DNA from: Atractiella rhizophila
Lineage: Eukaryota
DNA length: 58,687 nucleotides
Direction of reading: 5' to 3'
Assembly: GCA_021432655.1 (NCBI GenBank)
Contig: MU271319.1
Coordinates: 35,514 to 94,200 of the forward strand
A model generated the notes under the pieces. It worked only from the letters and a program-made list of their open reading frames with translations, was not told the DNA's origin and searched no databases. Positions 1,910 through 58,687 of this stretch are shown here, piece after piece. The first letter of the stretch is position 1, and every line of letters begins with the position of its first letter. A program made the translations under genes and the position numbers.

Positions 1910-4867
1910 ATGGGACTCTTCACAGGCCTCAAATCGCGTTCCAACAATCCGAATCCAGAGAGCGGCAACAACACGAACGATGTCCCCCCTCTCGCCCACC
2001 GCCAACGCCACCAACTCTTCTACCTCGGACACGCCCACGGCGACAGACATCCCCAGCATCTCCGTCTCTCGGCCCTCCGTCTCGCGTCCCAACCTGAACT
2101 CTCTCCCAACGCCGTCCCCGCGTCCGTCACAGGGCCAGGCCACGCTCCGACCCCAATCGTCTCAACGGTCGATGGGCTCCGTTCTCCGCTCCACCGCGGC
2201 CAGCGTCCGTCAGAGTTAGGAAGCGGCCGTCGAGGGAGCGACCTGGGACCGGGGGAAGTGGGCCAGGTGTGATGGGAAAACCTGGATGAGGATGTGGACA
2301 TGACGGAGGAAGTCGGGGAGGGAGAGAGTGCTACGCCTGGAATTTCTAATGCTGCTCTTCAAGGAAAAGGTAGCCCTGCAAGCGCCAGTGCTGGATTGAA
2401 GGGACAGAAACCTGGACAATTCTTGACCCCTCCCACTGCGGAAGGCGCTGGTAGGATGAGAAGCAGGTCAGCTCCTGGAGAAGCGAGGGATGGAGGATCG
2501 CTTTCTGTTTCCCCTTCTGCGTGGGGAAGCGGAGCGGGAGCTGGAGGAAGGGGGAGGAGAGGAAGCGTGGTTGAGAGCGTGGTGAGGGGCACGCCGATCG
2601 TGGAGGAGACGGAGATGGATTGGACTCAGGGGGAGCNNNNNNNNNNNNNNNNNNNNNNNNNNNNNNNNNNNNNNNNNNNNNNNNNNNNNNNNNNNNNNNN
2701 NNNNNNNNNNNNNNNNNNNNNNNNNNNNNNNNNNNNNNNNNNNNNNNNNNNNNNNNNNNNNNNNNNNNNNNNNNNNNNNNNNNNNNNNNNNNNNNNNNNN
2801 NNNNNNNNNNNNNNNNNNNNNNNNNNNNNNNNNNNNNNNNNNNNNNNNNNNNNNNNNNNNNNNNNNNNNNNNNNNNNNNNNNNNNNNNNNNNNNNNNNNN
2901 NNNNNNNNNNNNNNNNNNNNNNNNNNNNNNNNNNNNNNNNNNNNNNNNNNNNNNNNNNNNNNNNNNNNNNNNNNNNNNNNNNNNNNNNNNNNNNNNNNNN
3001 NNNNNNNNNNNNNNNNNNNNNNNNNNNNNNNNNNNNNNNNNNNNNNNNNNNNNNNNNNNNNNNNNNNNNNNNNNNNNNNNNNNNNNNNNNNNNNNNNNNN
3101 NNNNNNNNNNNNNNNNNNNNNNNNNNNNNNNNNNNNNNNNNNNNNNNNNNNNNNNNNNNNNNNNNNNNNNNNNNNNNNNNNNNNNNNNNNNNNNNNNNNN
3201 NNNNNNNNNNNNNNNNNNNNNNNNNNNNNNNNNNNNNNNNNNNNNNNNNNNNNNNNNNNNNNNNNNNNNNNNNNNNNNNNNNNNNNNNNNNNNNNNNNNN
3301 NNNNNNNNNNNNNNNNNNNNNNNNNNNNNNNNNNNNNNNNNNNNNNNNNNNNNNNNNNNNNNNNNNNNNNNNNNNNNNNNNNNNNNNNNNNNNNNNNNNN
3401 NNNNNNNNNNNNNNNNNNNNNNNNNNNNNNNNNNNNNNNNNNTGGAAGTTTTATACCACACGTACGCCTTTTCATTTCTCCTTCTTCTCTCTTCAGCTTT
3501 CATCGAGTGGCTGACGATGATTGTAGCGCTCTGGGGTTCATCACGACCACTTATTTCTTCCTCATTACCTTCTGGGGATCTGCCATCTTCCTTTTCATCA
3601 TCGGATGGATCCCAGGCACTGAAGGAGACTCACGCGTATGTCTTCCCTTCTCCTCTTCCACCCTACGCCGCCTGGCCAGCGTTGTTGACATCATGTTCTT
3701 GCATGTAGCGGTACTGGATCGAGATTTGTGACCAAATCCTCTGCGCACTTTTCACCGTCGTCGGAAGTGCGTATATTCCACTCTTGCTCTGCTCCAGCTG
3801 AATCTTTGATACCGTGGTTCATGATAGTTGGACTCGCACCGTTCAGGGCTAGGGACACGTACATCATGTATCACATTGTGAAATATTACCGCAAGTCAGA
3901 GAAAATTCGGGTTCGTCTTTCCTTTCCTCACCCCGGTTGCTTTGTTTGCTTTTGCTCGCTAGGTCTCATAGATTTGGTTTGTCCGTGGATAGAAAGCACG
4001 CCATCTGCCCAAGCTGACGGATAAAAATGAACTGCCGTCCCATAACTTGGATCCGGAGGAAGAGGCCCCGTATTATAATAAAACGGACGAGATCGTGTTG
4101 TCCCCAGAGGATCAGGAGCAGTTGGTTTATTATCAGACTAAGTTCCACGTAAGCTCCTTCTAGAAGGTGGATCATTTCACTAATGGACGAGATGATTGTA
4201 GGAAAGCCACTCGTTCTATCGCGCCCATGAGACGGCTACACATTATGCCTTCCCTATTAAGCTCATGGTCACCATCGTCCTCCTTCTCGACTTCCACAGC
4301 GTCTTCCAATCTTGTCTCGGCGGAGTGTTCGTCTTTCTTTCCTATCCTCCTCTTCTCCTCTCACTGACCATTCGTGTTTTTATTATCGTCAATAGAACCT
4401 GGGGAATAAACTATCTCGACCGTCCCACCTGGCCACCGATCTTCCTCATCTCCTGCTCCCTCTCCTGTTCCATATCCGCCGGTGTCCTCATTGCTCGAGG
4501 GGGATCGAAGACTAAGAAGACGGAGGAGGTGGAAAGGAGGCTGAGGGCTGCTTTGGAGAAGGAGGCGTTGTTGCAGATCCAGCATAAGAGGGAGAGGGAG
4601 GAACAGAAGAGGAAGGAACACGAGGAGGCGTTGAAGGTCATGGATGAAGCGGCGAGGGCTACGGATGAGGCTTTGCTCGGTAAGTCAAAATTTCCTATTC
4701 TAATGACCTGGAGTCACGTGGAGAGGATGCACTTCTTATTTCATTTGGGGAGCAGAGAGGGAGAGAGACCATGCGAACGGAATACATCATGGACATCATT
4801 TTTGGAAAAAATAATCTGTTCGACTCAAATCTTACGGCGCCCAGACCAGCACCAACCACCAGATTGA
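1910..4867 (+). CDS. DUF2985-family integral membrane protein; multi-exon, spans the assembly gap, both ends approximate
   Basis: Spliced translation after the gap gives GFITTTYFFLITFWGSAIFLFIIGWI, WIEICDQILCALF, GLAPFRARDTY, FYRAHETATHYAFPIKLMVTIVLLLDFHSVFQ and SCSISAGVLIARGGSKTKKTEEVERRLR, motifs I recognise from fungal DUF2985 proteins. A Ser/Pro-rich N-terminal region lies at 1910-2636 with apparent frameshifts. Confidence 0.75.
2637..3442. other. Assembly gap (806 N)
   Basis: Run of N in the sequence. Confidence 1.
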
Positions 4868-16715: not shown

Positions 16716-19700
16716 ATGTCCTCCCCTCCGCCCTCCGGCGAACCGAACCGCTCCTCCTCCCCGCTCTTCTTCGGCACCTCCTCCCCCTCCCAACCCCGAA
16801 CCCGCGCAGGCCAGCCGCCGTCCTCAGCGCAAGTCACGCCGCGTCGCCCGAACGCGTCACATGCGTCTCAAGCGGACTCCACGCCGCTGCGCTTCCCTTC
16901 GTCCGCTGCTCGTGGAGTGGCTGGCAGCGGGGGAGGACTGTTCTTTCCCCCGTCTTCGGCGGGTGGGACGGCGAGGAGTAGGAGGGTGCAGGATCTGTTG
17001 AGGGATGAAGTCATGGGTGGAGGCAGTCAGGGGAGCGGGTTGGATAGCGATGGGAGTAGGCTGCAGTTTCCTGGGTACGCGATTATCTATTGTGTTCTGT
17101 AGGGTAAAAGGAAGACGCGTTTAAAATCGAGAAATTGGAGAAAGATGGAGCTAGTCAAAGTGGTTGTTGTGATCAGCCCAGATCAGAACATTGCATTAAT
17201 GCAACTTGAATGAATCTGATGCCTGACCTCTGAATAGGTCTGCGAATGCCACTCCCGTCCGTGGAGGCGCTCGACGGCCCGCAAGAGGAGACATCCACTC
17301 CTCCGTCCCCTTCGACTCCCCATCCAATGCCCAGAACGCCCGTCGGCGCGTCCCCGCCTCTCACGGTGACCCTGCGCCATCGTCCAACGCCGACGTGACG
17401 ATGGACGAAGCAGACGCAGAGAACAACGCGGAGCCTCGCACCGTCATCTGGGGAACCTTGGTCTCCTTGAACCGCACCATCGCCGCCTTTCGAACCTTCC
17501 TCACGACCTTCAGAGCGGCCGATCGCGCGAAGCTCTATCCGCCTACGTACCCGGCTTCGCCTTATAGTGAAGAGGATGCGGAGAAGAGGGTTTATTGGGA
17601 TTTGTTGAGGAAGATGAGGCAGACGGGGGAGACTAATCTCAATTTGTCGATGTTGGACCTGTGGAGTTTTGGTGGGAAGGGCAGGGAGTGTTATGACCTA
17701 CTTATCAATTGGCCCCAGGAGGTGGTACCCGTTTTTGATCAGTGTGTGAAGGATATGGTGCTCGAGCAGGCGGAGCAGGAAGGCGCGGCTGATGAAGAAC
17801 TCGACGAATTGGAAGGAGGAATTTTTAAAGTCAGACCTGTGGGGGGAGAGTGTGGCGAGGGGAAAGGAAAGGACAGATGGGGGATTAAGGGAGATGAAGA
17901 TAACGTTGGAAAAGGAGTCAGAATGAGAGACCTCAATCCGTCAGGTACACTGCCCTTTACTTTCAAGTAGGAATATTGCTGATGGCTATGTCTAGACATC
18001 GACAAGCTCGTATCGATTAAAGGACTCGTTATTCGTACAACGACTGTGATCCCAGATATGAAGACGGCCTTCTTCCGTTGCATCTCCTGCTCTCATACCA
18101 TGACTTCAGTCATCGATCGAGGACGCATTGCCGAACCTGAAAAGTGCCCAAGGGAAGTCTGCAATTTGCAAGGAGGCATGCAACTGGTGCACAACCGCTG
18201 CGAATTCAGCGACCGGCAGGTCGTACGTTTGCAGGAAACCCCTGGTTAGTTTTTTCATTTTTCTCATGGAGATCTATCGAACTTAACTGTCTGATGGATA
18301 GACGCCGTACCCGATGGCCAGACTCCTCACACCATATCTCTATGCCTCTACGACGAGCTTGTGGACGTCGCGAAACCTGGAGATCGTATAACGGCCACCG
18401 GCATCTTCCGTTCCGTCGCCGTGAGACAAAATCCGAAGCAGAGAACGATCAAGACGCTCTTCAAAACCTACATCGACGTCGTTCACGTCCGTCGCACAAC
18501 CAAAGGCAAGCTTGGTGTCGATGCCTCGACGCGCGAAAACGGTCGTGTGACGATGAGTGTCGGCGTTGGGTTTGCGGGGTTGAATGCGGAGGAGAGGGAG
18601 GAACAGGAGGGTGAAGATAGGGTAATGGACGAGTTGGCGTCCAATGTCGATGGAGGAGAGCGGGATGGCGGACGGCGAGAGTTGGAAAGAAGGTTGAGAG
18701 AGTTGAGTCGGCGGGAGGACATTTATGAGGTCCTTAGTCGGAGCGTAGCACCGAGCATTTGGGAGATGAACGACGTCAAGAAGGGTATACTCTTACAAAT
18801 GTTTGGAGGAACAAACAAGAGTATCGAAAGAGGAGGTGGAGCGGGAGGTCCGAGATATCGTGGGGATATCAATGTCCTGCTGGTTGGAGACCCTGGTACC
18901 AGTAAAAGTCAGCTGCTCTCAGTAAGTACCACGGCTAGGAAATTTTGGTCTGACGCGAAGTTCGATCAGTACGTCCATCGAATCGCTCCTCGAGGCGTCT
19001 ACACCAGCGGAAAGGGTAGTTCGGCTGTTGGATTGACGGCGTATGTAACGCGTGATCCTGATTCTAGACAGCTGGTGCTGGAAAGGTACCTAGTTCCGTT
19101 GCTGCACATCCAGTTGGAGGTTGACAATCCGTCTCCAGTGGCGCGTTAGTGCTTAGTGACGGAGGAATCTGCTGCATCGACGAATTTGACAAAATGTCAG
19201 ACGCTACTCGATCTGTCCTCCACGAAGTCATGGCGAGTGCCTTCTTCGTTCACAGTCAATCAGCTGATTATAGGCGCGGCAGGAACAACAAACGGTCTCT
19301 ATCGCCAAAGCTGGAATCATCACCACTCTCAATGCTCGTACATCCATCCTCGCGGCAGCAAATCCGGTTAATTCAAAATACGATCGAAAGCAGCCCATAG
19401 CGAAAAACATTGACTTGCCTCCGACTCTGATTTCTCGATTCGATCTGCTCTATTTGGTACTAGACCAGATTGACGAGGCAAACGATAGACGCTTGGCAAA
19501 GCACCTTGTTGGGTTATACCTTGAAGACAAGCCAGAGACTGGTGGCGTTGACGTCTTGGTAAGTCCCCAAATGCTGCTGAGGGATGTAGAGTGAACATGA
19601 GGCAGCCGATCGAAACCTTGACTGCATACATCTCCTACGCTCGCAACAACATCCACCCCATCCTCACCGAAGCAGCCTCGAATTCGCTTGTGAAATCTTA

Positions 19701-42788: not shown

Positions 42789-42979
42789 AAGGCGGATGTT
42801 CACATCGAAGCTTTTGAGTGAACGGAGTTGAAAGGTGTTTGATTGAAGGGGATCCAAAAGATCGAGTTCTTATTACTGCACCGAAAGGCGGATGTTCACA
42901 TCGAAGCTTTTGAGTGAACGGAGTTGAAAGGTGTTTGATTGAAGGGGATCCAAAAGATCGAGTTCTTATTACTGCACCG
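42789..42979 (+). repeat. Tandem duplication of a ~96-bp unit
   Basis: AAGGCGGATGTTCACATCGAAGC...TTATTACTGCACCG occurs twice in succession. A diverged relative lies at ~40555-40682. Confidence 0.95.
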
Positions 42980-45760: not shown

Positions 45761-46398
45761 TTAGAAATAGCGTCAGGGAGTGGCCAACGCTGACACCGCG
45801 GGTGAGGACAGGAAGGGAGTGGCCAACGCTGACACCGCGGGTGAGGACAGGTCAGGGGTAGCCCAGGATAGGCATCTCACATCTTTGACCTCAGATATCT
45901 AGATAGCCATGCCTTTGGCTTTCCACTCGTTCAGCTGACTGGAAGCCACAACCTTGAAAGAAGCTGGCAAAACAGCTTGCACTGTTCCTCTGAACAAGTC
46001 AGCACCAATCGTTCGGGGTTGGATCCGACAACTTATGGACCCATTGTATATCTGCTTGATGATGTCCAAACGAAGATCATAGAGGACTAGCTCATCTGTC
46101 GGCTGGTCAAGGTTCTCGCTGATACGCTGTGCGCGCGAGAAACTCGCTTGAGAGAAACTCACAGAGTGGCGACCCCTCTGAGATCGGTCTGATCGACCAT
46201 CGTGCTGCAATCTGATGATGTTTTGGCCTACCTCGTCACCGTGATCGTCGTATACACATTCAAAATATCGAGAGAGAGGACGTGACGGTCTTTTGCATCC
46301 TTCCTCCGATGGGCAGCCGATGAGAAACAGTAGACGGTGGCAAGTAGAAGGGGCATTGTCGCAGTGGTTGGTTCCCCGACGTTTCTGGCGAAAGTACA
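45718..46398 (+). repeat. ~650-bp dispersed direct repeat, copy 1 (with an internal 38-bp tandem duplication at 45775-45851)
   Basis: Matches 49186-49830 from GCTATCTATCCTTCAAAC to GGCGAAAGTACA. Confidence 0.93.
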
Positions 46399-48509
46399 AT
46401 CCTGCAAAGCAACGAACCGAAACGTTTAGAACAAAGGAAGCTTTGGAGGCCGAAGGTTGAAAAGAGAGGTTTTGAGAACTCCAATCATCCCACATCTCAT
46501 CAACACCTCCCCTTACCCTTACCGCTACAGGCAGCTTTCTCTTGATTGTTCTGCTGGCAATCGAGGCAGAAGGAGAGCCTTGACAGATGTTCTGCCTGGG
46601 ATCATCTACATTGTGCTGGGACTTGTAGATGGTGTTGATCGACAGAGCTTCCCAATAGCGGCTTAGACCCTGATTGTCCGGTGGCAATCGAGGAACGGGC
46701 ACTACTTTACGAGATCTCTCCCTTTAGTCTTGCGGCTCGAAGAAGCCTGGACCCCTATCCGCCATCTCGCGTAGACGCTCCACAATCGAGTTCGATTAAT
46801 GTATCGTTACTCAGATTGGATTTCGAGAACAGACTCACCTATGCCACTTGGCAGTTTTTACGCAGTTTTTAGGGGCTGTTCAATTTACTTAGGAGTCGGA
46901 GTCGGTCGGCGTTAAAACTGGTCCAAAAGCTGTTGAAAAGTTTTGGACCGAATAACCAAAGCGCAATACCGCGCTTGGGAGTGCAAACTGTTTCCCAATC
47001 GTTCGCTCAAAATGGTTGTGCGCTTTAGTATTGAGAACGTTTGCAGCCAAAAGCCGACGTCAAAACGAGACCACTTTATCGCCGATCATCGATCATCGAT
47101 CACTCCATCTCCGCTGATTTACCAACGTCCGGACGTTGTTGAAAACTACGAGTCCTTCGCTGATCTCGTCAGTTATTTCTTCTCCAGCGTCCATTTGCAG
47201 ATATCAAACTGAGTCCATCAAAATGGCACAAATTTCGGCGGGGGAGGATGGAATGAGGGCATGATCTCTCTTTTTCTTTTTCTCATCACCTAACGTAAGC
47301 TTTGGGCTGTGGTCTGGCATCTTTTTTCAGGAAATGATTGAGCAGCAACCATCAATCCCATGCACAGGCGTTCAGGAGCCAGACTCGAGTGCCACGGCCT
47401 TGTTCAAGGAAGATCGCCAGCAAAACTTGATTGCTCACGCGACCAGCATTCAAACTCCCACCAACACATCCGAACTTTCGACCTCAGGACCCTTCGCGAC
47501 AGGTGTCATGATTGTGGACTCTCCGCAATCTGACTACCACGAACCCCCTTCATTTACTCCTCCTGATTTCATACCCGGAAAGCACGCATTGGTCCTCGCC
47601 AACCCTGCCACCACCTCCGTTTCGAAGCTCAAATTGTCTCTCGGACCAATCTCCCAAATCCCACCTTTCAATCCAAAGCGCGCAAAACCTGCTACACCCC
47701 GAGGCAAACCTGCCACAACGCCAATCATGGAGGAAAGCGGAAGAGTATCTCATCACTTCAATCATCCTATCACTTTTACCCCACTTGTACGTCCTCTTAT
47801 CCTATACTTCGGAAGATAATGCTGATGGACTACCAAGAATGACCCAGGCCAAGGCCATGCTGCTTCGTCCTCAGCTTCTTCCACCGAGACGGTGAGGAGA
47901 TGTTCTTTTCGCTGAAGTCGAGTCATAAAAGTGGATTTTGATCCAGGAGGTGGCAGCGAATCCATTTTTTCATGATCGCGCCTTGAAGAACAGAGCTTCG
48001 ATCCACGTGAAAGAGGATTTCTCACCCTTCAAAAGCGGCACAGCCAGGGATCCATCGTCAGTTAGTCAGTTAGCCTTTGCCCCATCGATCTTGCTACTAC
48101 TATTCCTTCGTGACGGAACTGTTCCGTCAGTCAAATTTGGCTGGGGAACAGAGTTAGGGTCAGGGCCAGGGTGAGTCCCGTCAGCCCAGTTGCGAGGCTC
48201 TGACTGACGGAACTAACCTGACGGGATGGAACGCACCGTTGAGTCCCGTCAGCTCTGACGCGACGGCCAAATTGTCTTGCAAGGTGGGGATCAGCACCGA
48301 CGCGAAGCTCAAACATGCGAGGTTCATTGCGAGGGCGCCAAGTTCGCTACCAGTCGCGAAGTAGGCACTTCGGGTCGCTGGCTGGCTGCAACGTGCGAAG
48401 TGCCTTCCAGTCGCGAAAGGTCAAGTTTGGTTCAGCAATGGGTGGCAACCTGCGAAGGGCCTCTGTAGTTGAGAGGGAGCAGGCTCGCAAGAAAGCAGAT
48501 GTGCGAGAG

Positions 48510-49185
48510 AGCACACTCGAGAGACGGCCAACTTGCGAGACGGCCAACTCGCGAGATAGCAAACTAGCGAGGTGAACCGAAACGCTAGGTTGCAAACTCG
48601 CGAGACGGCAACAAACTCGCGAGACAGCTAACTGGCGAGACTGCCAACTCGCGAGATGGCCAACTCGCGAGACTGCAAACCACCGAGACGGCCAACTAGC
48701 AAGAAAGCAAACTTGTGAGAATGCGAGCTCCGAGATGGCCAACTTGCGAGACAGCAAACTAGCGAGGTAGGTGAAACGCTAAGTTGCTAACTCGCGAGAG
48801 AGCAACAAACTCGTGAGACAGCAAATTAGCGAAGAGCACTCGCGAGACTGCCAACTCGCGAGACGCCCAACTCGCGAGACTGCCAACTCGCGAGACGCCC
48901 AACTCGCGAGACAGCAAACCCGCGAGACGGCCAAGTAGCGAGAATGCTGTCTCGTGAGACTGCAAATGCGAGAGAGCAAACTCGCAAGGTGGCCAACTCG
49001 CAAGCATGCAAACTCACGAGACTGCCAACGCGAGAGAGCAAACTCGCGAGACGGCCAACTCGCGAGATAGCAAACTAGCGAGGTGAACCGAAACGCTAGG
49101 TTGCAAACTCGCGAGACGGCAACAAACTCGCGAGACAGCAAACTGGCGAGAGTGCCACCTCGCGAGACGGCCAACTCGCGAGACA
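48510..49185. repeat. Degenerate tandem array of ~15-18-bp units with palindromic core CTCGCGAG (consensus ~GCCAACTCGCGAGAC)
   Basis: Roughly 35-40 units read directly. A 94-bp higher-order block at 48535-48628 is repeated exactly at 49046-49139, with a variant near 48735-48830. Confidence 0.93.
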
Positions 49186-49830
49186 GCTATCTATCCTTCA
49201 AACTTTTCTCGAACTTCTTGAGAGCGTTTTAGAAATAGCGTCAGGGAGTGGCCAACGCTGACACCGCGGGTGAGGACAGGTCAGGGGTAGCCCAGGATAG
49301 GCATCTCACATCTTTGACCTCAGATATCTAGATAGCCATGCCTTTGGCTTTCCACTCGTTCAGCTGACTGGAAGCCACAACCTTGAAAGAAGCTGGCAAA
49401 ACAGCTTGCACTGTTCCTCTGAACAAGTTAGCACCAATCGTTCGAGGTTGGATCCGAGAAACTTATGGACCTATTGTATATCTGCTTGATGATGTCCAAA
49501 CGAAGACCATAGAGGACTAGCTCATCTGTCGGCCGGTCAAGATTCTCGCTGCTCGATACGTTGTGCGAGCGAGAAACTCGCTTGAGAGAAACTCACAGAG
49601 TGACGACCCCTCTGAGATCGGTCTGATCGACCATCGTGCTGCAATCTGATGATGTTTGGCCTACCTCGTCACCAAGATCGTCGTATATACATTCAGAATA
49701 TCGAGAGAGAGGACATGAAGGTCTTTTGCATCCTTCTCCGATGGGCAGCCGATGAGAAACAGTAGACGGTGAAAAGTAGAAGAGGCATTGTCGCAGTGGT
49801 TGGTTCCCCGACATTTCTGGCGAAAGTACA
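49186..49830 (+). repeat. ~650-bp dispersed direct repeat, copy 2
   Basis: Matches 45718-46398 and abuts the CTCGCGAG array directly. Confidence 0.93.
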
Positions 49831-51191: not shown

Positions 51192-52199
51192 TTATACATC
51201 AAACGTCACACTGCCATCCCCATACAGCGCGAACGAAGCCCAGTGCTTCGGTTCCGCTCGCCCAGGCACCCGCATGTACTCCGTTAGGGTCTCTCTGACC
51301 AGCTCTGCCATCGACTTAACCTCAAGCCGGCGTGATAGTCGGATCTTACGCAGCAAGTTTGTCGAAATTGGAACTATATCTTCTTGCAGCACCGTGTGAA
51401 GAGTTCCCAGTACACTTTGTGAGCCAGCCAAGATGAAGGAGTTGATGAATCCGAGATAGTCGTCGGTGGGGGAGTTTCGACCTTGCAGGCTTCCACACCC
51501 AGCCAAGATAGTTGTCGTTGCTCTAAGTTGAAGTTCTGTTACTCGACGAGCTGTGAGGAGCCCATTATCCGCCATAAGGAAAGCAGCCGAAAGGGGATCA
51601 AGTGGATCGATAGTGGCATCCGCATGGCTCAAGAAGTATATCAAGTCAGCTTCCGGCATGGCTTGGACACATGCTTGAGCCGTCGCATGCACTCCAAGAA
51701 GAAGGGTTGAAGGGGAGTGCTCTTGGTGCAATTCTCGAAAGGCTTGCTCGCATCGTTCCTGTTCAACAGGATCCAGATGGAAACGGCGGCCAGCAGGGAA
51801 CGCCATTAGGAGCTCGTTTGAGGTTGCTTCACCCTCTCTTGTCGCTCGTAGACCCACCAGCGAGAGCAGCGAAAGGCTATATGAGACTGGATTTCGCACA
51901 AGAAGGTATTGGTCATTGAGTTTGAGCGCATGTAAAGGAATGCGGTACATCTCCTTGGTTGGGATCAGAATCAAGTGCTGATTGGGCTTTGTGTGATCCT
52001 GTAGCGGTTGGATGAGATAGGCAAAGTGTTCCAGAAGATTGGCTCCTTCTGCATACCAGGCCTCCGAGTCACCAAGCTCTCCCCTTTTGTGAATCTCGCT
52101 CGAGTACTCCTTATTCAGGTCAATCAGGACCGGTTGGTTCACAGGACCGTTGCATATCATGAGATAAAGGCTATCCAGTATTGTGATCCATTCCACAAC
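51192..52199 (-). pseudogene. CHAT-domain (caspase-HetF/separase-like peptidase) gene, 5'-truncated by the adjacent transposon
   Basis: LILIPTKEMYRIPLHAL, IYFLSHAD (catalytic His), LLTARRV, ILAGCGS (catalytic Cys), FILAGSQSVLGTLHTV, HWASFALYG. The ORF has no own start: its first 8 annotated residues come from the transposon end (52200-52223). Confidence 0.8.
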
Positions 52200-52546
52200 T
52201 ATGACGTGCATTTCGGGCCACAACTAGACTCACCAAAGTGACCAACCCAGCCTACCAACCCAACCAATCAGACCAACCACACTAACCAGGAAGACTTACC
52301 AAAAGGACCGACTAGCTTGATTGACATGACCGACCAGACTGATCAAACAACATACAATCAAGGTGTATGGAGAGTGGAATTGAAACAATTGAATCGTTGT
52401 CAAAGTGAGCAGAGACCTAATAAGAAAAGACCTCAGCTTGTGCTGGAGCTCAATAGTATATAATATGACGTTGTTCACGCACATGTGCAAACTTTATTAG
52501 ATGCTTCACCTTGATTTCAGCAATCACAGAACGTTCAAGCAATGCA

Positions 52547-54355
52547 ATGGCCAGGGGAAGAAGGCTAAGGGAAGAAGCACGTCGATTTGCACGCAATCCG
52601 ACACAAGCACGCCCTTGGGTTCAGTCACAAGGGCAATCAGCCGTGCAGAATGGTTCAGACCTGCTTCCGTTCGCTGCAGATGAGGTACGAAAGGTCCAGG
52701 AAGCTGTGTACGAATGCACACTCCCAATCTACAACTTCAGCCGTCAGCTTTCAAGCTTCTATACTGCCCGCCGATTCCTTGCTCTTCCTGAGGTTCTCAA
52801 CCGCCTACAACAAGTCATCAACCTCTATGTCTCTCTCAAGCCCCTTCTGCCATATCAAGAAATCTTTGCTCCTACTCTAGTCAAACTCATGAACTTGCGT
52901 GAGGAGCTTGGGAACCTGGAGGAGACAGCTGGGGATGTTCTTCCACAATTAGGGCAACAATTGTTTGAAATTGGACCCAGTGGACGTCGACGTATCAAGA
53001 TTGACCATGACTTATTCGTCTACTTGGTGAAGAACAAAATTCCGGCTCCTGAGATCGCCTTTCTGCTTGGTGGGGTTAGTGAAAGGACAGTAAAGAGAAG
53101 GAAACAAGAGTGGGGTCTATCAAAGAAGCTTTGGCCCAAGATCAGTAAGGACGACTTGCACGAACTTGTTCAACGTCTTAGAGCGTCAGGAGATATCTAT
53201 GTCGGAGAGATTGGAATGTTAGCTGCAGTGCACTCTTGTGGCGTAAGAGTTGATCGAGAAGAATTAAGAGAAGTCTTAAGGGAGGTGGATCCAATTGGAG
53301 TGATGGAGCGATGGGCTGGCCGAATCAAACGCCGAACATATTCTGTTCCTTTTGTCTTTTCTCTGTGGCATATTGATGGTATATTTTGGCACTTTTCAAG
53401 TTCCAACCTGAAAGTCTTTGAATAGGGTATATGGCACTTATTCGCTGGTCCTTACCTATTCATGGCGGAATAGATGGGTTCTCAAGGCTCTGTGTCTATC
53501 TTTTCATTGCGGACAATAATCGGGCCGAAACAGTCCTGAAGGCATTTGAGCAAGGATGTCAAAGGTATGGCTGGCCAAGTCGTGTAAGGTGTGATTTCGG
53601 CGGGGAGTTTGAAGAAGTAGAGAAGAAGATTATTTCAGTCAGAGGAGCCGGTCGAGGTGTGTGAATCCTGTACAAACTGATAAGAAATGTTAATCAGACA
53701 AGGATAGCTTCTCTCATTCGTGGATCTTCCACACGAAACCAACGAATCGAACGCTTATGGGTCGATGTTTGGAGATGGGTCATCCGGCTCTATTACACAT
53801 TGTTCTATTTCTTAGAACATGAAGGGCTTCTCAATGCAGAGAACGAAGCAGATATCTGGATCCTTCATTATGTCTTTATTCCTCGCATCCAATCTCACCT
53901 CGATCACTTTCGTGAAAATCTCTGGAATAATCACAAGATCAGCACAGAAAGCTCAAAGACTCCATGGCAACTCTATATAACTGGTAATGTCAAGTCCTGA
54001 AGAGGTCTTTGTTGCTGTTCTGAGACATTTTACAGGTCGCATACGTGCTGAAAAACGAGGTTTCCGTCTCAATTTAGATCCATTTCATGCTCAAACCTCA
54101 AATGACGATCATGAGACAGCAGGTATTGATTTTACTGAATATGGTGTTGATCACGACATTGGACGGGCTCGGAAGAACACAGACCCTCATGTCGAAGTCA
54201 ATCCACCTGCACGTTTTCTCACAGCAAGCGAATATGCCATATTGAAGGCAGAAGTTCCTGTCAGCACCAGGTCAGCAACTGACAACTGGGGACTGGATAC
54301 TTATATTGCTGCTCGTAACGTCATTGCAACACTGATCTGTAAGAGGCGAACATAA
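52547..54355 (+). CDS. DDE transposase, integrase-core/IS3EU type
   Basis: Four exons (introns ~53379-53425, ~53658-53707, ~53984-54035). HTH EIAFLLGGVSERTVKRR, then LREVDP.G...IKRRTYSVP..FSLWHIDG|YMALIRW..IHGGIDGFSR, YGWPSRVRCDFGGE, GSSTRNQRIERLWVDV, WNNHKISTE..TPWQL. The D-D-E triad is intact. Confidence 0.9.
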
Positions 54356-54687
54356 TTGAGGAGTTCTGATACAGTAGTTCGTTTTCTTTTAATCCTAACA
54401 ACAAAAGCATACAGTATAATTATTCACGTTTACACTAAATAATGAATAAAGAGCATTTTATTCCCTATCTGAATCTTCTAATGGAACATCATTCCCAATT
54501 ATGCTAGAAAAAGGCACACTTTCCCTCATTACTTCAATAGCCTTATCAGGTTGATCAAATATTCCTAGGTCTTGTGCAATTAATCTCCAGCCCACCTTAG
54601 GAACCACAATCTTCTCCATGACATCACTAAACACTGGAATCTTCTTCGACTGTTTGTACCACTTTGCTTTGGAGAAGAGGTCCTTAT
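54317..54687 (+). repeat. 371-bp direct repeat, copy 1 (3' ends of both transposon genes)
   Basis: Aligns without gaps to 54782-55152 (offset 465); I count 7 differences, all transitions. Confidence 0.95.
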
Positions 54688-54780
54688 GGGTTAGGGTTAG
54701 GGTTAGGGTTAGGGTTAGGGTTAGGGTTAGGGTTAGGGTTAGGGTTAGGGTTAGGGTTAGGGTTAGGGTTAGGGTTAGGG
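54688..54780 (+). repeat. Interstitial telomeric tract GGG(TTAGGG)15
   Basis: 93 bp of perfect canonical fungal telomere repeat, G-rich strand on + (orientation of a right-hand chromosome end). Confidence 0.99.
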
Positions 54781-54781
54781 A

Positions 54782-55152
54782 AATGTCGTTGCAACACTGA
54801 TCTGTAAGAGGCGAACATAATTGAGGAGTTCTGATACAGTAGTTCGTTTTCTTTCAATCCTAACAACAAAAGTATACGGTATAATTATTCACGTTTACAC
54901 TAAATAGTGAATAAAGAGCATTTTATTCCCTATCTGAATCTTCTAATGGAACATCATTCCCAATTATGCTAGAAAAAGGCACACTTTCCCTCATTACTTC
55001 AATAGCCTTATCAGGTTGATCAAATATTCCTAGGTCTTGTGCAATTAATCTCCAGCCCACCTCAGGAACCACAATCTTCTCCATGACATCACTAAACACT
55101 GGAATCTTCTTCGACTGTTTGTACCACTTTGCTTTGGAGAAGAGGTCCTTAT
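54782..55152 (+). repeat. 371-bp direct repeat, copy 2
   Basis: Matches 54317-54687 and continues into the remainder of transposon ORF2. Confidence 0.95.
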
Positions 55153-57900
55153 TCTTCTCTACAAAGCGACAGATTAGATCAGCACCGTAACTTCCGTAGC
55201 TATCCGAAATCGTAAATGCAGTGAACCATATATTCAGTAGCACACTACTTACTATCCTGGATAACAATGGTCAAAATTATGAAACTGTTCTGTCAGTGTT
55301 TGACGCTTCATATTCTCCTTAACTAGTGGTTCAATATTCTGTGTTAGAATGTCTGAAACTACATCACTATATTCGGTGATCCTCCTTTCGGTGTATTAGA
55401 TTGAACCTGCTAATAAAGAGAGCATGACGTACAACTTGAAGAGATCCCAATCAACTATAACCGGCCAATGCTTCTTGAACCCAGCATTTATCTCTAACCA
55501 ATCGTGACTGTGCTCGCTACAAGGTCCAGGAACATCTAGCGTTCGTTTATCGACAAGGACAAATTGACGGATCGAATCTCTCCGGTTAGGCTTACAAAAG
55601 ATACAAAGCCTGAAATAATAACGTCTCATTAGCTGAATCCATATATAAGGAAAGACAGACTCTTTTGGGGCATAAAAGTTCTTGATACCTTCAAGCTGCC
55701 GAGGGACAATAGAAAGTGGATCAGCACCAGCTGTTTTGCTCCGAGTCCGATATGCTGGCTCTCTCTGGAAATCCGCTTCATTTATTTGAGAGGAAGGGGT
55801 AAAAATTTGTGGTGTAGAAGCATTATTCAAATTGAAATCCTGCATAAACGGATCGCTGACACCTTCCTGCATGGTCTCTAGACCATTGGACGATTGATGT
55901 GAATCTACGTCATAATCCACCTTCATTCCATATGAGGTCTACGTTAACTGCCATTGGAAGGACGCACTAAGCTTTGGCTCTTGGCAACCATCCCTGCTTC
56001 ATCTTCTAACCATAGGAGTCCCTTCTGATCATCCCATGCCATTCTCCCACTAAGCGCATCTTCGCTTTGATGCCCATCGTCCATTGATGGATCTGGAAAC
56101 AAACCAAAATAGTTCGCTTCAAGCTGATCATGAGGTGGGCTAAAGCTTTGTGCATCCAGCTCTGCTGTGGTGTCCATACTTTGCAATGACCCAAGACCTA
56201 GTTGGCCCTCAACTGCATCGTCCTCATCAGCTCCCAATCTGACTGCTTGAGAGATGTGCTGTGTGGTCTTTTGAGGGGGAGGTGCCTTATTGTCTTCACT
56301 CTCAGATGTAAACCCTGCAGACTATCACTGGTATATCAGCTCAACCTTATCTTTTGATAGCAACAAGGCATACACAGCGTTTGACATGATGAGAGAACTC
56401 GCCTTCATTGAACAGTTGGGCGCAGGATGGGCATTTTAACTGCTGGGCTACTACGTTGTCATTTCGGTCCTGTTTCATCTTGCTGCCCTTGTCAAGGTGA
56501 TATTTCCGGAAACGTTTGGGAGTACGTCCTAAACGGATAAGTACTTTTGAAGTCTTGTAGGCCCACTTGAACTTTTCGACATCTGGTCGCTCAGGGACCG
56601 CAAGGTTAACGTTCTTGTACGTTCGTTCAAGTCCATTAGAAGCGGTAATCCGATAATATCTGCAGAATAAATTATGTTACCTGTACTTATAACTTGGTTA
56701 ATGGGTAAAAGATGCGTACCGATAATTATACTTTACTAGATCAATATCCTTATCCAAGAAACAGGTGGTAACGAGGGAATGGAGATGATCTGATGTGGCA
56801 TTGTCCGGAATAGGGACCGTTACTGAAAACTCCTTGGAAATTCGTGACAGGTATGAGGTTGACCAAGTAAACTGTATGTCCTCTCCAGTTGGAATGAGTA
56901 CAAAGGAATTTTTGGAGTTTTGGGTTCCTCCACCATAGTTTAGAAGCTTGGAAGAGGTCGGCGATTGTTCGACAGGGGTTTTGAAGTTGAAAATATCGGA
57001 AGGGAGGTGTGCCATGGTCACAGCCTTCTTCCTTCGTCTCAGGCTAGAGGATGATCGATTTGAAAAATTTTGTGGTGCCGTTTGAGCCTTCCCAGTGATG
57101 TTCTCATTCAGTGTCTAAGTGTATAATGAATATACTGTCTCAACACATAAAAGAGAACAGACCCCTGAGACAATACCGGGTATCAACCAACGACCGCTGT
57201 CTTGTTTGCCTTGTGTCGTCTTTTGGAACTCGTGTGTAATCCTCGTTACAATATCTGTGTGTTGTTCTAAATTAATGTCGCTAAGCCAATCCCCATGAAG
57301 CGTCAACCAGCAACATACCTGTACGTCTTCGTTTCTTTCCTTTCCGTCCATGCTTTTCAATAGCATCTTCTTCATGTTGAACGTTCCCATTATGTCTCTT
57401 CTTGCCAAGGATTGCACTACTGCAGCATTTATGATACAATATGACGATGAATTTTGGGATAGGCGTACATATCTTCCGTTATGATTGTAGGGCTTGTCGC
57501 TTGTGGGTCCGTAGTAGGGGCAGAAAGATCTCGGAGGCGTTGCCAAATAGGGTCTTCCTTTGGCCTGGAGCTAAAGCAACTTCATGATCAATAAACCCGC
57601 CACAATAGCTAGAAGGAAGAAACTTGCCTTTCAACTCCCTCAAGAGCCTCCTTATCAGGTGCCACCTGCCTATTATCATCACTGTCCCCGCTGTCCTCAG
57701 TTTGCTCATCCTGCTCCTCTTCTTCCCCATTTCCATCACTATCGCTGTTCTATTCCGAAACTGATATAAATTGAAGGCCAAAAATTATGAGAAGAGAAGT
57801 GTTACCAGCAACTGTTGCAATAGAAGTTGTTTCTCCTTCTTTGTTAGCTTAGAGACATCGAGTTTCTTTGGAAGTGACGAAGCATCTTGAAGCATGAAGA
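54923..57900 (-). CDS. Transposon accessory gene (ORF2), multi-exon, unknown function; 5' end approximate
   Basis: Chain of minus-strand ORFs (57115..57546, 56698..57021, 55944..56237, 55396..55926, 54923..55267) separated by intron-sized gaps. It converges on the transposase and lies inside the TIRs. Confidence 0.6.
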
Positions 57901-58687
57901 TTTAGAAGATTGAACGTATTGATCTACCTTTATCGTAGATAGATAAATCCAAAGAAACCAACTGCGAACTTATAGGCTATGGATCTTCGGCCGGCTGCAA
58001 ATGATTCCGGTTTCGCTTGTCTTGATTCCTTCAGATTCATGCTGTGATATTACATGGATGAAGGTAACAAATCCTATTTCGCATCAGCCCAAAAGCAATC
58101 GCATCAACTTGCATCATGGTAGTATGTGACCTAGCTCAATCAGGTGATCTTCAACTGCCCGAGGGTAGGTACTATATAAGGTTATATCCGAGTTCCGCTC
58201 TTCGCCCGAAGTCGGAGATATCACGTGACCCGATTTAAATTTACATATGCCGATTATTATCAGGTACCTGCCTTGTCATCAATCTAATTATCCTCTTTGT
58301 CTATAAGTCAACAAAAGGAGTCAAATTTCTGGGTTTGGATTGTTAGGTCTGGTAGGTAGGTCTGGTCTGGTCCCTTACTCTACTAGGTGCTGGCCCTTTT
58401 TTCATGCCATACTCGACGGCTCGAGCGGCTTGGAGAGCTGCAGCTACAAAAGAGAGAGGAACGAGAGAAGAATGCATGACGAGAAAGAACGTCTGAAGCT
58501 GCAGTACGCTCAGCCTTGCGACAACCACGAATGGGAAGCATGGTTGTGAGGCCAGTGGATTTTATTCGCTGTCGCGCCGAGAGAAAGAGGGAAATGCAAC
58601 GTGAGAGATACACTGAAGGATCTTGAACGTGCGATAAGCTCCACATGGTGCGGAATAACAAGTGTTGCAGGGAACTGTAAGTCCGAC

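What the first reader, a model, noticed from the sequence alone, without database searches (positions are those of the whole stretch)
52200..58411. A DNA transposon carrying its own telomere: IS3EU-like element with a perfect internal (TTAGGG)15 tract, both genes and both ends retained
Seen: left TIR + intact DDE transposase + 371-bp segment + GGG(TTAGGG)15 + second copy of the 371-bp segment + ORF2 + right TIR. The duplicated segment covers exactly the convergent 3' ends of the two genes. The left half therefore has a complete transposase and a truncated ORF2 tail, and the right half has an apparently complete ORF2 and only the last ~12 transposase codons. Known: IS3EU is a eukaryotic superfamily related to bacterial IS3, with TAY..RTA ends, 6-bp TSDs and two genes; interstitial telomere tracts can act as fragile sites and seeds for new chromosome ends. 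Inference: the composite keeps everything needed to move, so it could carry a telomere seed to new sites. That would be a cut-and-paste route to chromosome fragmentation, which I do not know to be described for this family.
Basis: partly seen in the sequence, partly recalled or inferred. Interest (0 to 1): 0.88.

Follow-up and report, generated by a model that had tools for sequence, protein, structure and literature searches.

The report
Telomere-capped broken transposon, probably misjoined
The telomere repeat inside this fungal transposon most likely marks a real chromosome end where one copy broke and was healed, and the assembly probably stitched a second, complete copy from another locus onto it, so it is probably not a transposon that carries a telomere.

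Summary
The sequence is as described: GGG(TTAGGG)15 at 54688-54780, flanked by a 371-bp direct duplication (364 of 371 identical), inside an IS3EU-type element (52200-58411). The transposase (~555 aa) and the second gene (799 aa) are both intact.

The two halves do not belong to one insertion. The window's flanks (CACAAC / CTCGAC) are not a target-site duplication. Contigs from public runs show the right flank paired with a different left flank, absent from the window. That pairing gives a perfect 6-bp duplication (CTCGAC), and an empty allele of the site also exists. The runs hold two variants of the left half but show one right half, at lower word depth. The copy with the other left flank carries the non-window variant.

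Best reading (0.6): a truncated copy healed by a telomere (a chromosome end) was abutted in assembly to the right part of a complete, tract-less copy. Rival (0.27): a real join of that healed end to the second copy by break-induced replication or end joining.

The right junction (54780/54781) could not be checked because the read tool masks the tract. Nothing shows a mobile telomere-carrying element.

By-product: an expressed, spliced and apparently recently mobile fungal IS3EU family.

The parts
51192..52199 (-). Left flank ('locus L'): C-terminal part of a CHAT-domain gene, interrupted at 52199/52200
   Evidence: Pfam CHAT PF12770, E 3.2e-32. A 230-nt X1 contig covers 51998-52227 with 0 differences, so this junction exists in reads. 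Paralogous contigs (17-29 differences) run on past 52196 without the element.
52200..52230 (+). Left terminal inverted repeat (TATGACGTGCATTTCGGGCCA...)
   Evidence: 14 of 21 terminal bases match the reverse complement of the right end.
52547..54355 (+). Transposase gene, 4 exons, about 555 aa, intact. Intron 53379-53425 is seen in X3 contigs. Introns 53661-53702 and 53984-54035 are predicted.
   Evidence: Pfam rva_4 PF24764 (E 8.6e-25, 4.5e-34) and rve (1.1e-4). Weak NCBIfam IS481 (2.9e-4) and IS3 (0.02). Open spliced frame. X3 joint 53377/53425, GT..AG.
54317..54687 (.). Left copy of the 371-bp segment (last 12 transposase codons, intergenic DNA, truncated 3' end of ORF2). It ends where the copy is broken.
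   Evidence: X2 contig 14 ends 8 letters past 54679, that is at 54687, a branch point.
54688..54781 (+). GGG(TTAGGG)15 plus one A. The G-rich strand runs 5'->3' rightwards, as at the right end of a chromosome.
   Evidence: X2 loose end of 27 telomere letters after the end of the segment.
54782..55152 (.). Right copy of the 371-bp segment. It belongs to the complete copy ('locus R').
   Evidence: X1 contig 7 covers 54908-58382 with 0 differences. X2 contig 15 starts at 55123, which is 30 bases before the 55152 branch.
54923..57896 (-). ORF2: 12 exons, 799 aa, intact. The C-terminal exon has an RTC4-like domain. The start codon position near 57896 is inferred from the spliced frame.
   Evidence: 11 introns seen as joints in X3 contigs. 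Open 799-aa spliced frame. Pfam RTC4 PF14474, E 3.3e-6, 27.7 bits against a cut-off of 23.7. No relatives found for the last 115 aa.
58380..58411 (-). Right terminal inverted repeat (...TGGCCCTTTTTTCATGCCATA)
58412..58687 (-). Right flank ('locus R'). It starts with CTCGAC, the 6-bp target duplication of the complete copy.
   Evidence: An X1 loose end shows this flank preceded by ...GTCCACAAT with no element (empty allele). An X3 loose end shows ...CACAATCTCGAC followed by the element's left end. That left flank is absent from the window (0 matches with up to 3 mismatches).

Best explanation
The genome holds at least two nearly identical copies of one IS3EU-type cut-and-paste transposon, inserted at homologous positions of two paralogous CHAT-domain genes.

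- Copy R is complete and has no telomere tract. It consists of transposase, one 371-bp intergenic and 3'-end segment, and ORF2. It is flanked by a perfect 6-bp duplication, CTCGAC.
- Copy L broke inside the 3' end of ORF2, after ...GGTCCTTAT at 54687. The broken chromosome was healed by telomerase, so window 1-54780 is a chromosome arm ending in a short telomere.
- The assembler collapsed the two near-identical left halves. It then placed the R-specific piece (54781-58687: segment, right half, 276 bp of R flank) behind the telomere without a gap. The two contigs really overlap by 371 bp, so this made a false 371-bp 'duplication' around the tract.

Shown:
- The tract and its left junction exist.
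- The flanks come from two loci.
- There are two left-half variants.
- A tract-less link from transposase to segment exists.
- Both genes are intact, and contigs of run X3 lack their introns.

Inferred:
- The tract is terminal in the cell.
- The right junction was made by the assembler.
For: 1. Flanks. The window's flanks, CACAAC and CTCGAC, are not a duplication.
   - In X1 the right flank (58412 onward) is preceded by ...CCATTGATGTCCACAAT with no element.
   - In X3 the same sequence plus CTCGAC precedes the element's left end. This gives a perfect 6-bp duplication, as expected for IS3EU (family rule from passages of PMC10045372).
   - That left flank is not in the window (0 matches).

2. 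Two left halves, one right half seen.
   - X1 contigs 5 and 6 differ from the window's left half at 5 and 8 letters plus an 11-nt gap at 52317. X2 contig 14 differs at 12 letters plus the same gap.
   - X1 and X2 come from one sample yet disagree with each other. At 9 of the 12 element positions shown in table 3, only X1 carries the other letter.
   - The right-half contigs have 0 differences over 3475 nt (X1) and 3185 nt (X2).

3. The X3 contig with the R-type left flank lacks the stretch around 52317, as the non-window variant does (joint 52252/52328). So the window's left half goes with flank L, not with the copy that owns the right flank.

4. All X1 and X2 contigs covering 54319 carry T, the right-copy letter, directly after the transposase 3' end. 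So a tract-less link from transposase to segment exists (table 3).

5. Contig word depth is 229-256 for the left half against 159 for the right half in X1, and 154.9 against 85.4 in X2 (table 8). This fits two left halves to one right half. The tool warns that this depth is not a copy number, so the point is weak.

6. The contig graph branches exactly at the end of the segment. X2 contig 14 ends at 54687. X2 contig 15 starts 30 bases before 55152. Another contig goes from there into telomere letters.

7. Tract orientation (G-rich strand reading outward to the right) and length (93 nt) fit a chromosome end. De novo telomeres on truncated ends are documented in a fungus (PMC7367193, passages).

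8. The right copy starts 2 bases before a cluster of two copy-specific differences (54784, 54788). The window carries an 806-N gap, so it is a scaffolded assembly. The window ends only 276 bp beyond the element.
Against: - The join carries no N and has a definite sequence ((TTAGGG)15-A-AATGTCG). Most scaffolders would leave a gap unless some read supported the join.
- I could not look at reads across 54680-54788 because the tool masks it. The right junction is therefore neither confirmed nor refuted.
- The depths are contig means, which the tool says are not copy numbers.
- Only 28 of 100 contig pieces and 14 of 28 loose ends were shown. The R-type left junction was seen only in X3 (organism B), not in the listed rows of X1 or X2.
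- X1 and X2 may be the window's own source data or a slightly different strain. No contig there shows the window's C at 54319.
- A tract of 93 nt is short enough for short reads to cross, so a real internal tract would also have assembled this way.
- Telomere ends priming break-induced replication into repeats is a real process in fungi (PMC7367193).
Confidence: 0.6

Rival explanations
1. The structure is real but a one-off rearrangement. Copy L broke and was healed by a telomere. Later that short telomere end was joined to copy R 371 bp upstream of the homologous break point. The join came either from break-induced replication primed from the telomere end or from end joining to a break in copy R. 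This left an interstitial telomere tract and a non-reciprocal translocation (L arm - tract - R right half - R distal arm).
For: - It explains the L/R mosaic, the R-type letters in the right copy and the N-free junction equally well.
- Repair of telomere-bearing ends by break-induced replication, D-loop extension or end joining, leaving internal telomere tracts between repeats, is described in Magnaporthe (PMC7367193, passages).
- A 93-nt tract can be crossed by short reads, so assembly through it is plausible.
Against: - It needs a second copy of the right half and of the R flank, because the complete R copy with its own left flank also exists (X3). It therefore predicts right-half depth about equal to left-half depth and segment depth about 1.5 times that. 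Observed right:left is 159:229-256 in X1 and 85.4:154.9 in X2 (weak, since contig depth is not a copy number).
- The junction falling 2 bases before two clustered copy-specific differences is a coincidence under this model.
- Neither junction was found elsewhere (a blank of low weight).
Confidence: 0.27
2. A single-copy event: a staggered break in one element, telomerase adding repeats to one 3' end, then fill-in and rejoining. This would make a 371-bp tandem duplication with a telomeric filler, as proposed for telomeric repeats inserted during break repair in mammals.
For: - The layout, a direct duplication flanking a telomeric insert, looks like a filled staggered break.
- Insertion of telomeric repeats at repaired breaks is described in vertebrates (PMC2246262 and PMC7215372; search listing and abstract starts only).
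Against: - The two sides carry different flanks and different copy-specific variants, so two copies are involved, not one.
- 7 differences in 371 bp beside a perfect tract would need later divergence.
- The window's flanks do not form a target duplication.
Confidence: 0.05
3. One reading: a functional composite IS3EU that carries an internal telomere seed and can transpose it to new sites, seeding chromosome breaks.
For: - If the join is real, the composite has both ends and both intact genes.
- The family looks recently mobile: filled and empty alleles of the R site with a perfect 6-bp duplication. X3 contigs lack the introns of both genes.
Against: - The composite's own flanks show no target duplication, so it did not arrive by transposition.
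- The only tract-bearing copy seen is this one.
- A tract-less link from transposase to segment exists in the runs.
- Neither junction was found in the metagenome collection.
- The halves derive from two insertions.
Confidence: 0.03

Closest known systems
[quoted passage not shown]
   Same: - An rve-type DDE transposase with weak likeness to IS481 and IS3 models.
- TA..TA termini, with the right end reading TATGG in reverse complement (TAYGG..CCRTA type).
- A 6-bp target duplication (CTCGAC) for the complete copy.
- A second gene convergent with the transposase.
   Different: - The second gene is not an alpha-kinase, unlike the rust-fungus families described. It is a 799-aa protein with a C-terminal RTC4-like domain and no detectable relatives for that part.
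- The left terminus reads TATGA, not TAYGG.
- Placement in a tree with Repbase IS3EU proteins could not be done here.
Terminal truncation healed by de novo telomere formation in fungi (Magnaporthe; PMC7367193, passages read)
   Same: A break inside a repeated element, followed directly by TTAGGG repeats with the G-rich strand pointing outward, starting at a T-ending sequence.
   Different: There the ends were shown by cloning and long reads to be terminal. Here terminality is inferred. The first added letters (GGG after ...TTAT) are not in simple register with a 1-4 nt seed.
Interstitial telomere tracts between MoTeR retrotransposons, and their breakage and break-induced-replication products (PMC7367193)
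   Same: Telomere repeats lie between copies of a mobile element, with duplication of element sequence on either side.
   Different: MoTeRs are telomere-targeted retrotransposons that internalise telomere repeats when they integrate. Here the element is a cut-and-paste DNA transposon with no sign of telomere targeting, and the internal position of the tract is unproven.
False duplications at contig joins in scaffolded assemblies (PMC9516828; search listing and abstract start only)
   Same: Two overlapping contig ends, here 371 bp at 98% identity from two repeat copies, are placed in tandem instead of being merged.
   Different: Here the sequence between the copies is a telomere tract rather than a gap of Ns. 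That needs either direct abutting or a chimeric read.

Membership tests
IS3EU (eukaryotic DNA transposon superfamily) | DDE transposase of the retroviral-integrase (rve) fold, related to bacterial IS3/IS481 | tested here: met
   Pfam PF24764 rva_4 in 2 of 4 transposase pieces (E 8.6e-25, 4.5e-34) and PF00665 rve (1.1e-4). NCBIfam IS481 (E 2.9e-4) and IS3 (E 0.02) match in 1 of 3 proteins scanned, far below the curated cut-offs. The likeness to the bacterial families is therefore weak.
IS3EU (eukaryotic DNA transposon superfamily) | TA..TA termini (fungal families: TAYGG..CCRTA) | tested here: met
   The ends read TATGACG... and ...TGCCATA. The right end fits CCRTA. The left end reads TATGA, one letter off TAYGG. 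Rule taken from passages of PMC10045372 and PMC12730594.
IS3EU (eukaryotic DNA transposon superfamily) | 6-bp target-site duplication | tested here: met
   Met for the complete copy only. Run contigs give ...CACAAT-CTCGAC-[element]-CTCGAC-GGC... and an empty allele with a single CTCGAC. Not met for the window's own pair of flanks (CACAAC / CTCGAC).
IS3EU (eukaryotic DNA transposon superfamily) | Terminal inverted repeats longer than 30 bp (fungal families) | tested here: inconclusive
   14 of 21 and 16 of 30 terminal bases match without gaps. A gapped alignment extends to about 70 nt. The two ends may come from two different copies.
IS3EU (eukaryotic DNA transposon superfamily) | Second gene opposite to the transposase (an alpha-kinase in the described rust-fungus families) | tested here: not met
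   A convergent second gene is present. No Alpha_kinase match at E up to 0.1 in any of its 7 ORF pieces. Only RTC4-like (3.3e-6) and a weak C2HC zinc finger (0.008) were found. The alpha-kinase is reported for TET-carrying families only (PMC12730594 passage), so it may not define the superfamily.
IS3EU (eukaryotic DNA transposon superfamily) | Grouping with Repbase IS3EU transposases in a tree | not testable with these tools
   Repbase sequences are not held. Protein searches gave no hit for exon 1 and 1 hit for exon 3 (an unnamed 254-aa PF24764 protein, 49% identity).
Interstitial telomeric sequence (a real internal tract) | Single molecules that carry unique sequence on both sides of the tract | not testable with these tools
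   Read laying skipped 54680-54788 and only contigs were available. Only the left junction was seen.
Healed chromosome end (de novo telomere) | G-rich strand 5'->3' toward the end, starting abruptly at non-telomeric sequence, with molecules ending in the tract | tested here: inconclusive
   Orientation and the abrupt start are met. A contig runs from the segment into telomere letters. That molecules end there could not be tested.

The most novel reading that the evidence does not exclude
The join is real. A telomere-healed, truncated IS3EU copy primed repair into a second copy, creating a composite. The composite has both transposon ends and two intact genes whose spliced forms appear in run X3. 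It belongs to a family that still shows insertion polymorphism, and it carries an internal 93-bp telomere seed. Such an element could in principle be cut out and pasted elsewhere by its own transposase, planting a breakage-prone telomere seed at new sites.
Probability: 0.05. Interest if true: 0.8.

Novelty: not a real feature. Interest (0 to 1): 0.22.

Why it matters
If the composite were real and mobile, it would be a new route by which a cut-and-paste transposon spreads telomere seeds and fragments chromosomes. The evidence points the other way. What probably exists is a chromosome end created by a break inside a transposon copy and healed by telomerase, a known kind of event, plus an assembly join that should be corrected before anyone counts this as an interstitial telomere or a gene duplication.

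The useful positive result is a fungal IS3EU family that looks alive. Both genes are intact, and contigs of run X3 lack their introns. The insertion is polymorphic with a perfect 6-bp duplication. Two insertions lie 6 bp apart at homologous sites of paralogous genes, which hints at target preference. The accessory gene has no detectable relatives.

Tried and rejected
- Whole-genome search for other copies: no genome is held for this window.
- Metagenome scans: exact scans for the left junction and the right junction each gave 0 hits. This is a blank of little weight.
- Earlier notes of this scan: nothing found by place or by sequence.
- RNA runs: no RNA holder was listed by the look-up of sequencing runs. 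X3 is of unrecorded kind. I read it as RNA only from its 12 intron-like joints.
- Cover near the tract: by my arithmetic on table 2, no contig of X1 or X2 seems to be laid on 54789-54859. The tool masks the tract and drops human-like records, so this hole is not evidence about the right junction.
- X4: this soil metagenome gave only four 151-nt pieces, so nothing is drawn from it.
- Transposase homologues: exon 1 against longer proteins gave none. Exon 3 gave 1 of 26 candidates.
- ORF2 homologues: the last 115 aa gave 0 hits in 1.84 billion representatives. The protein atlas gave a best score of 0.77, below the lead level.
- Link between the RTC4 name and the tract: I considered whether the RTC4-like domain (named after a yeast telomere-capping screen; the meaning of the name is recalled, not from a call) links ORF2 to the tract. 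I rejected this as a coincidence of naming. The tract lies downstream of the ORF2 stop in the right copy, and the break simply truncates the left copy.
- Old in-place duplication: the perfect tract beside 1.9% divergent copies does not exclude this by itself (about 0.9 changes would be expected in 93 nt). The different flanks and variants argue against it.

Full report
**1. What is in the sequence**

The window holds a perfect GGG(TTAGGG)15 at 54688-54780, followed by one extra A. It is the only place in 58,687 bases with two or more telomere units.

The tract sits between two direct copies of a 371-bp segment, 54317-54687 and 54782-55152. These are 98.1% identical. The 7 differing positions are all transitions, and two of them lie in the first 7 bases of the right copy.

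The whole lies in an element running from TATGACG... at 52200 to ...GCCATA at 58411. Its ends match as imperfect inverted repeats, 14 of the first 21 bases. The window also has an 806-N gap at 2637-3442, so it comes from a scaffolded assembly.

**2. The element and its genes**

- Transposase family. Two of the four transposase ORF pieces match Pfam PF24764 (rva_4, integrase core) at E 8.6e-25 and 4.5e-34. One piece has weak likeness to the NCBIfam IS481 (E 2.9e-4) and IS3 (E 0.02) transposase models.
- Transposase frame. With one intron seen in run X3 and two predicted introns, the gene reads as an open frame of about 555 aa.
- ORF2. Contigs of run X3 skip 11 short intervals (47-60 nt) on the minus strand, bounded by CT..AC, or CT..GC once. 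They skip one GT..AG interval in the transposase (table 5). Removing the 11 intervals gives an open 799-aa frame.
- Expression. X1 and X2 do not show these joints. I therefore read X3 as a transcript assembly and take both genes to be transcribed and spliced. The run's kind is not on record.
- ORF2 domains. Its last exon matches the RTC4-like domain (PF14474, E 3.3e-6, above the cut-off). Its last 115 aa have no hit among 1.84 billion representatives. No alpha-kinase domain was found.
- Family features. By the passages I read, IS3EU families have TA..TA termini and usually 6-bp target duplications (PMC10045372). Fungal ones have TAYGG..CCRTA ends and a transposase facing a second gene (PMC12730594). 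The element fits this superfamily, with a different accessory gene.

**3. The two halves belong to two insertions**

The window's flanks, CACAAC on the left and CTCGAC on the right, are not a duplication. Contigs from public runs show the following:
- An X1 contig has the right flank preceded by ...CCATTGATGTCCACAAT with no element. This is an empty allele.
- An X3 contig has that same sequence plus CTCGAC directly before the element's left end.

So the right flank belongs to a complete insertion, 'R', with a perfect 6-bp duplication CTCGAC. Its left flank is absent from the window (0 matches at up to 3 mismatches).

The window's own left junction, 'L', is also real: an X1 contig covers 51998-52227 with 0 differences. 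Contigs of paralogous CHAT-domain genes run on without the element past 52196. Their continuation is not in the window either.

Read on the minus strand, L and R are paralogous genes hit 6 bp apart at the homologous place.

**4. Two left halves, one right half seen**

- X1 and X2 are two runs of one sample. They give left-half contigs that differ from the window at 13 and 12 letters, plus an 11-nt gap at 52317. They also differ from each other: at 9 of the 12 element positions listed, only X1 has the other letter.
- The right-half contigs have 0 differences over 3475 and 3185 nt.
- The X3 contig with the R-type flank also lacks the stretch around 52317. Copy R therefore carries the non-window variant, and the window's left half goes with flank L.
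- All X1 and X2 contigs covering 54319 carry T, the right-copy letter, directly after the transposase end. A tract-less link from transposase to segment therefore exists.
- Contig word depths are 229-256 (left) against 159 (right) in X1, and 154.9 against 85.4 in X2. The tool warns that these are not copy numbers. I use them only as a weak pointer to two left halves per right half.
- The contig graph branches exactly at the end of the segment. X2 contig 14 ends at 54687. X2 contig 15 starts 30 bases before 55152. One contig continues from there into 27 telomere letters.

**5. Reading**

The simplest account is as follows.
- Copy L broke after 54687 and was healed by telomerase, so window 1-54780 is a chromosome arm with its telomere. 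The G-rich strand points outward, as it must.
- The assembler collapsed the near-identical left halves. It then set the R-specific contig (segment, right half and 276 bp of flank) behind the telomere.
- That produced the false 371-bp duplication. The right copy starts two bases before a cluster of copy-specific differences, which is what an assembler break would give and a coincidence for a biological junction.
- Healing of truncated ends by de novo telomeres, mostly on 1-4 nt seeds, is documented in Magnaporthe (PMC7367193, passages).

I put this reading at 0.6.

**6. Rivals**

- A real join of the healed end to copy R, by break-induced replication or end joining, fits the L/R mosaic and the N-free junction as well. 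Such repair is described in the same paper. It needs a second right half and R flank, which the depths do not suggest (0.27).
- A single-copy staggered break with telomeric filler does not fit the two flanks and the two variant sets (0.05).
- The mobile telomere-carrier reading (0.03) lacks a target duplication for the composite, lacks any second tract-bearing copy (0 hits; no genome held), and rests on ends that come from two insertions.

**7. Limits**

- The right junction could not be examined. Read laying masks 54680-54788, and only contigs, not reads, were available.
- Only 28 of 100 contig pieces, 14 of 28 loose ends and 40 of 105 differing positions were shown.
- X1 and X2 may be the window's own source and are not independent support.
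- PMC9516828, PMC2246262 and PMC7215372 were seen only as search listings with abstract starts.

**8. Verdict**

The family assignment and gene integrity are right. The proposed telomere-carrying transposon is most likely an assembly join at a healed chromosome end, or at most a one-off rearrangement.

Noticed in passing
window 58412-58417 and the element as a whole: The complete copy's site is polymorphic in one sample. Contigs show both the filled site and an empty allele with a single CTCGAC. Together with the intact genes and the intron-lacking X3 contigs, this suggests the IS3EU family is or was recently mobile.
   Followed up: partly
window 52190-52199 versus the R-type left flank seen: Two insertions of the same element lie 6 bp apart at homologous positions of two paralogous CHAT-domain genes. 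The flanks are strongly diverged, including a 12-codon indel, while the element copies are about 99% alike. This may reflect target-site preference or gene conversion.
   Followed up: partly
window 58119-58172: A stretch of about 50 bp in the right subterminal part has a summed contig depth of about 2438 in X1 and 1259 in X2, against about 160-270 nearby. Several contigs run on unlike on both sides. It is probably a short dispersed repeat shared with many loci.
   Followed up: no
window 54923-57896 (-): ORF2 (799 aa, 12 exons) has only an RTC4-like C-terminal domain and a weak C2HC zinc finger. Its last 115 aa have no relative at E 0.001 or better among 1.84 billion representatives. One of its introns (57571-57627) is of the GC..AG type.
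   Followed up: partly
window 48503-49187: A degenerate tandem array of a 16-nt unit (ACTCGCGAGACGGCCA-like, about 42 copies, 65% matches) lies about 3 kb left of the element. There are also perfect 2-copy repeats of 96 bp (42789-42979) and 39 bp (45775-45851).
   Followed up: no
window 7634-36886: The rest of the window looks like ordinary gene-rich DNA. 8 of 25 long ORF pieces have Pfam hits: MCM helicase (17227-19149), three protein-kinase pieces, a PLP decarboxylase, an Ifi-6-16 family piece and RhoGAP. If the healed-end reading is right, an MCM gene lies about 35 kb from a telomere.
   Followed up: no
window 52253-52327: The left subterminal region, rich in ACCAAC-type short repeats, is length-variable between copies. 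There is an 11-nt gap at 52317 in X1 and X2 contigs, and a 75-nt interval replaced by 16 letters in an X3 contig.
   Followed up: no
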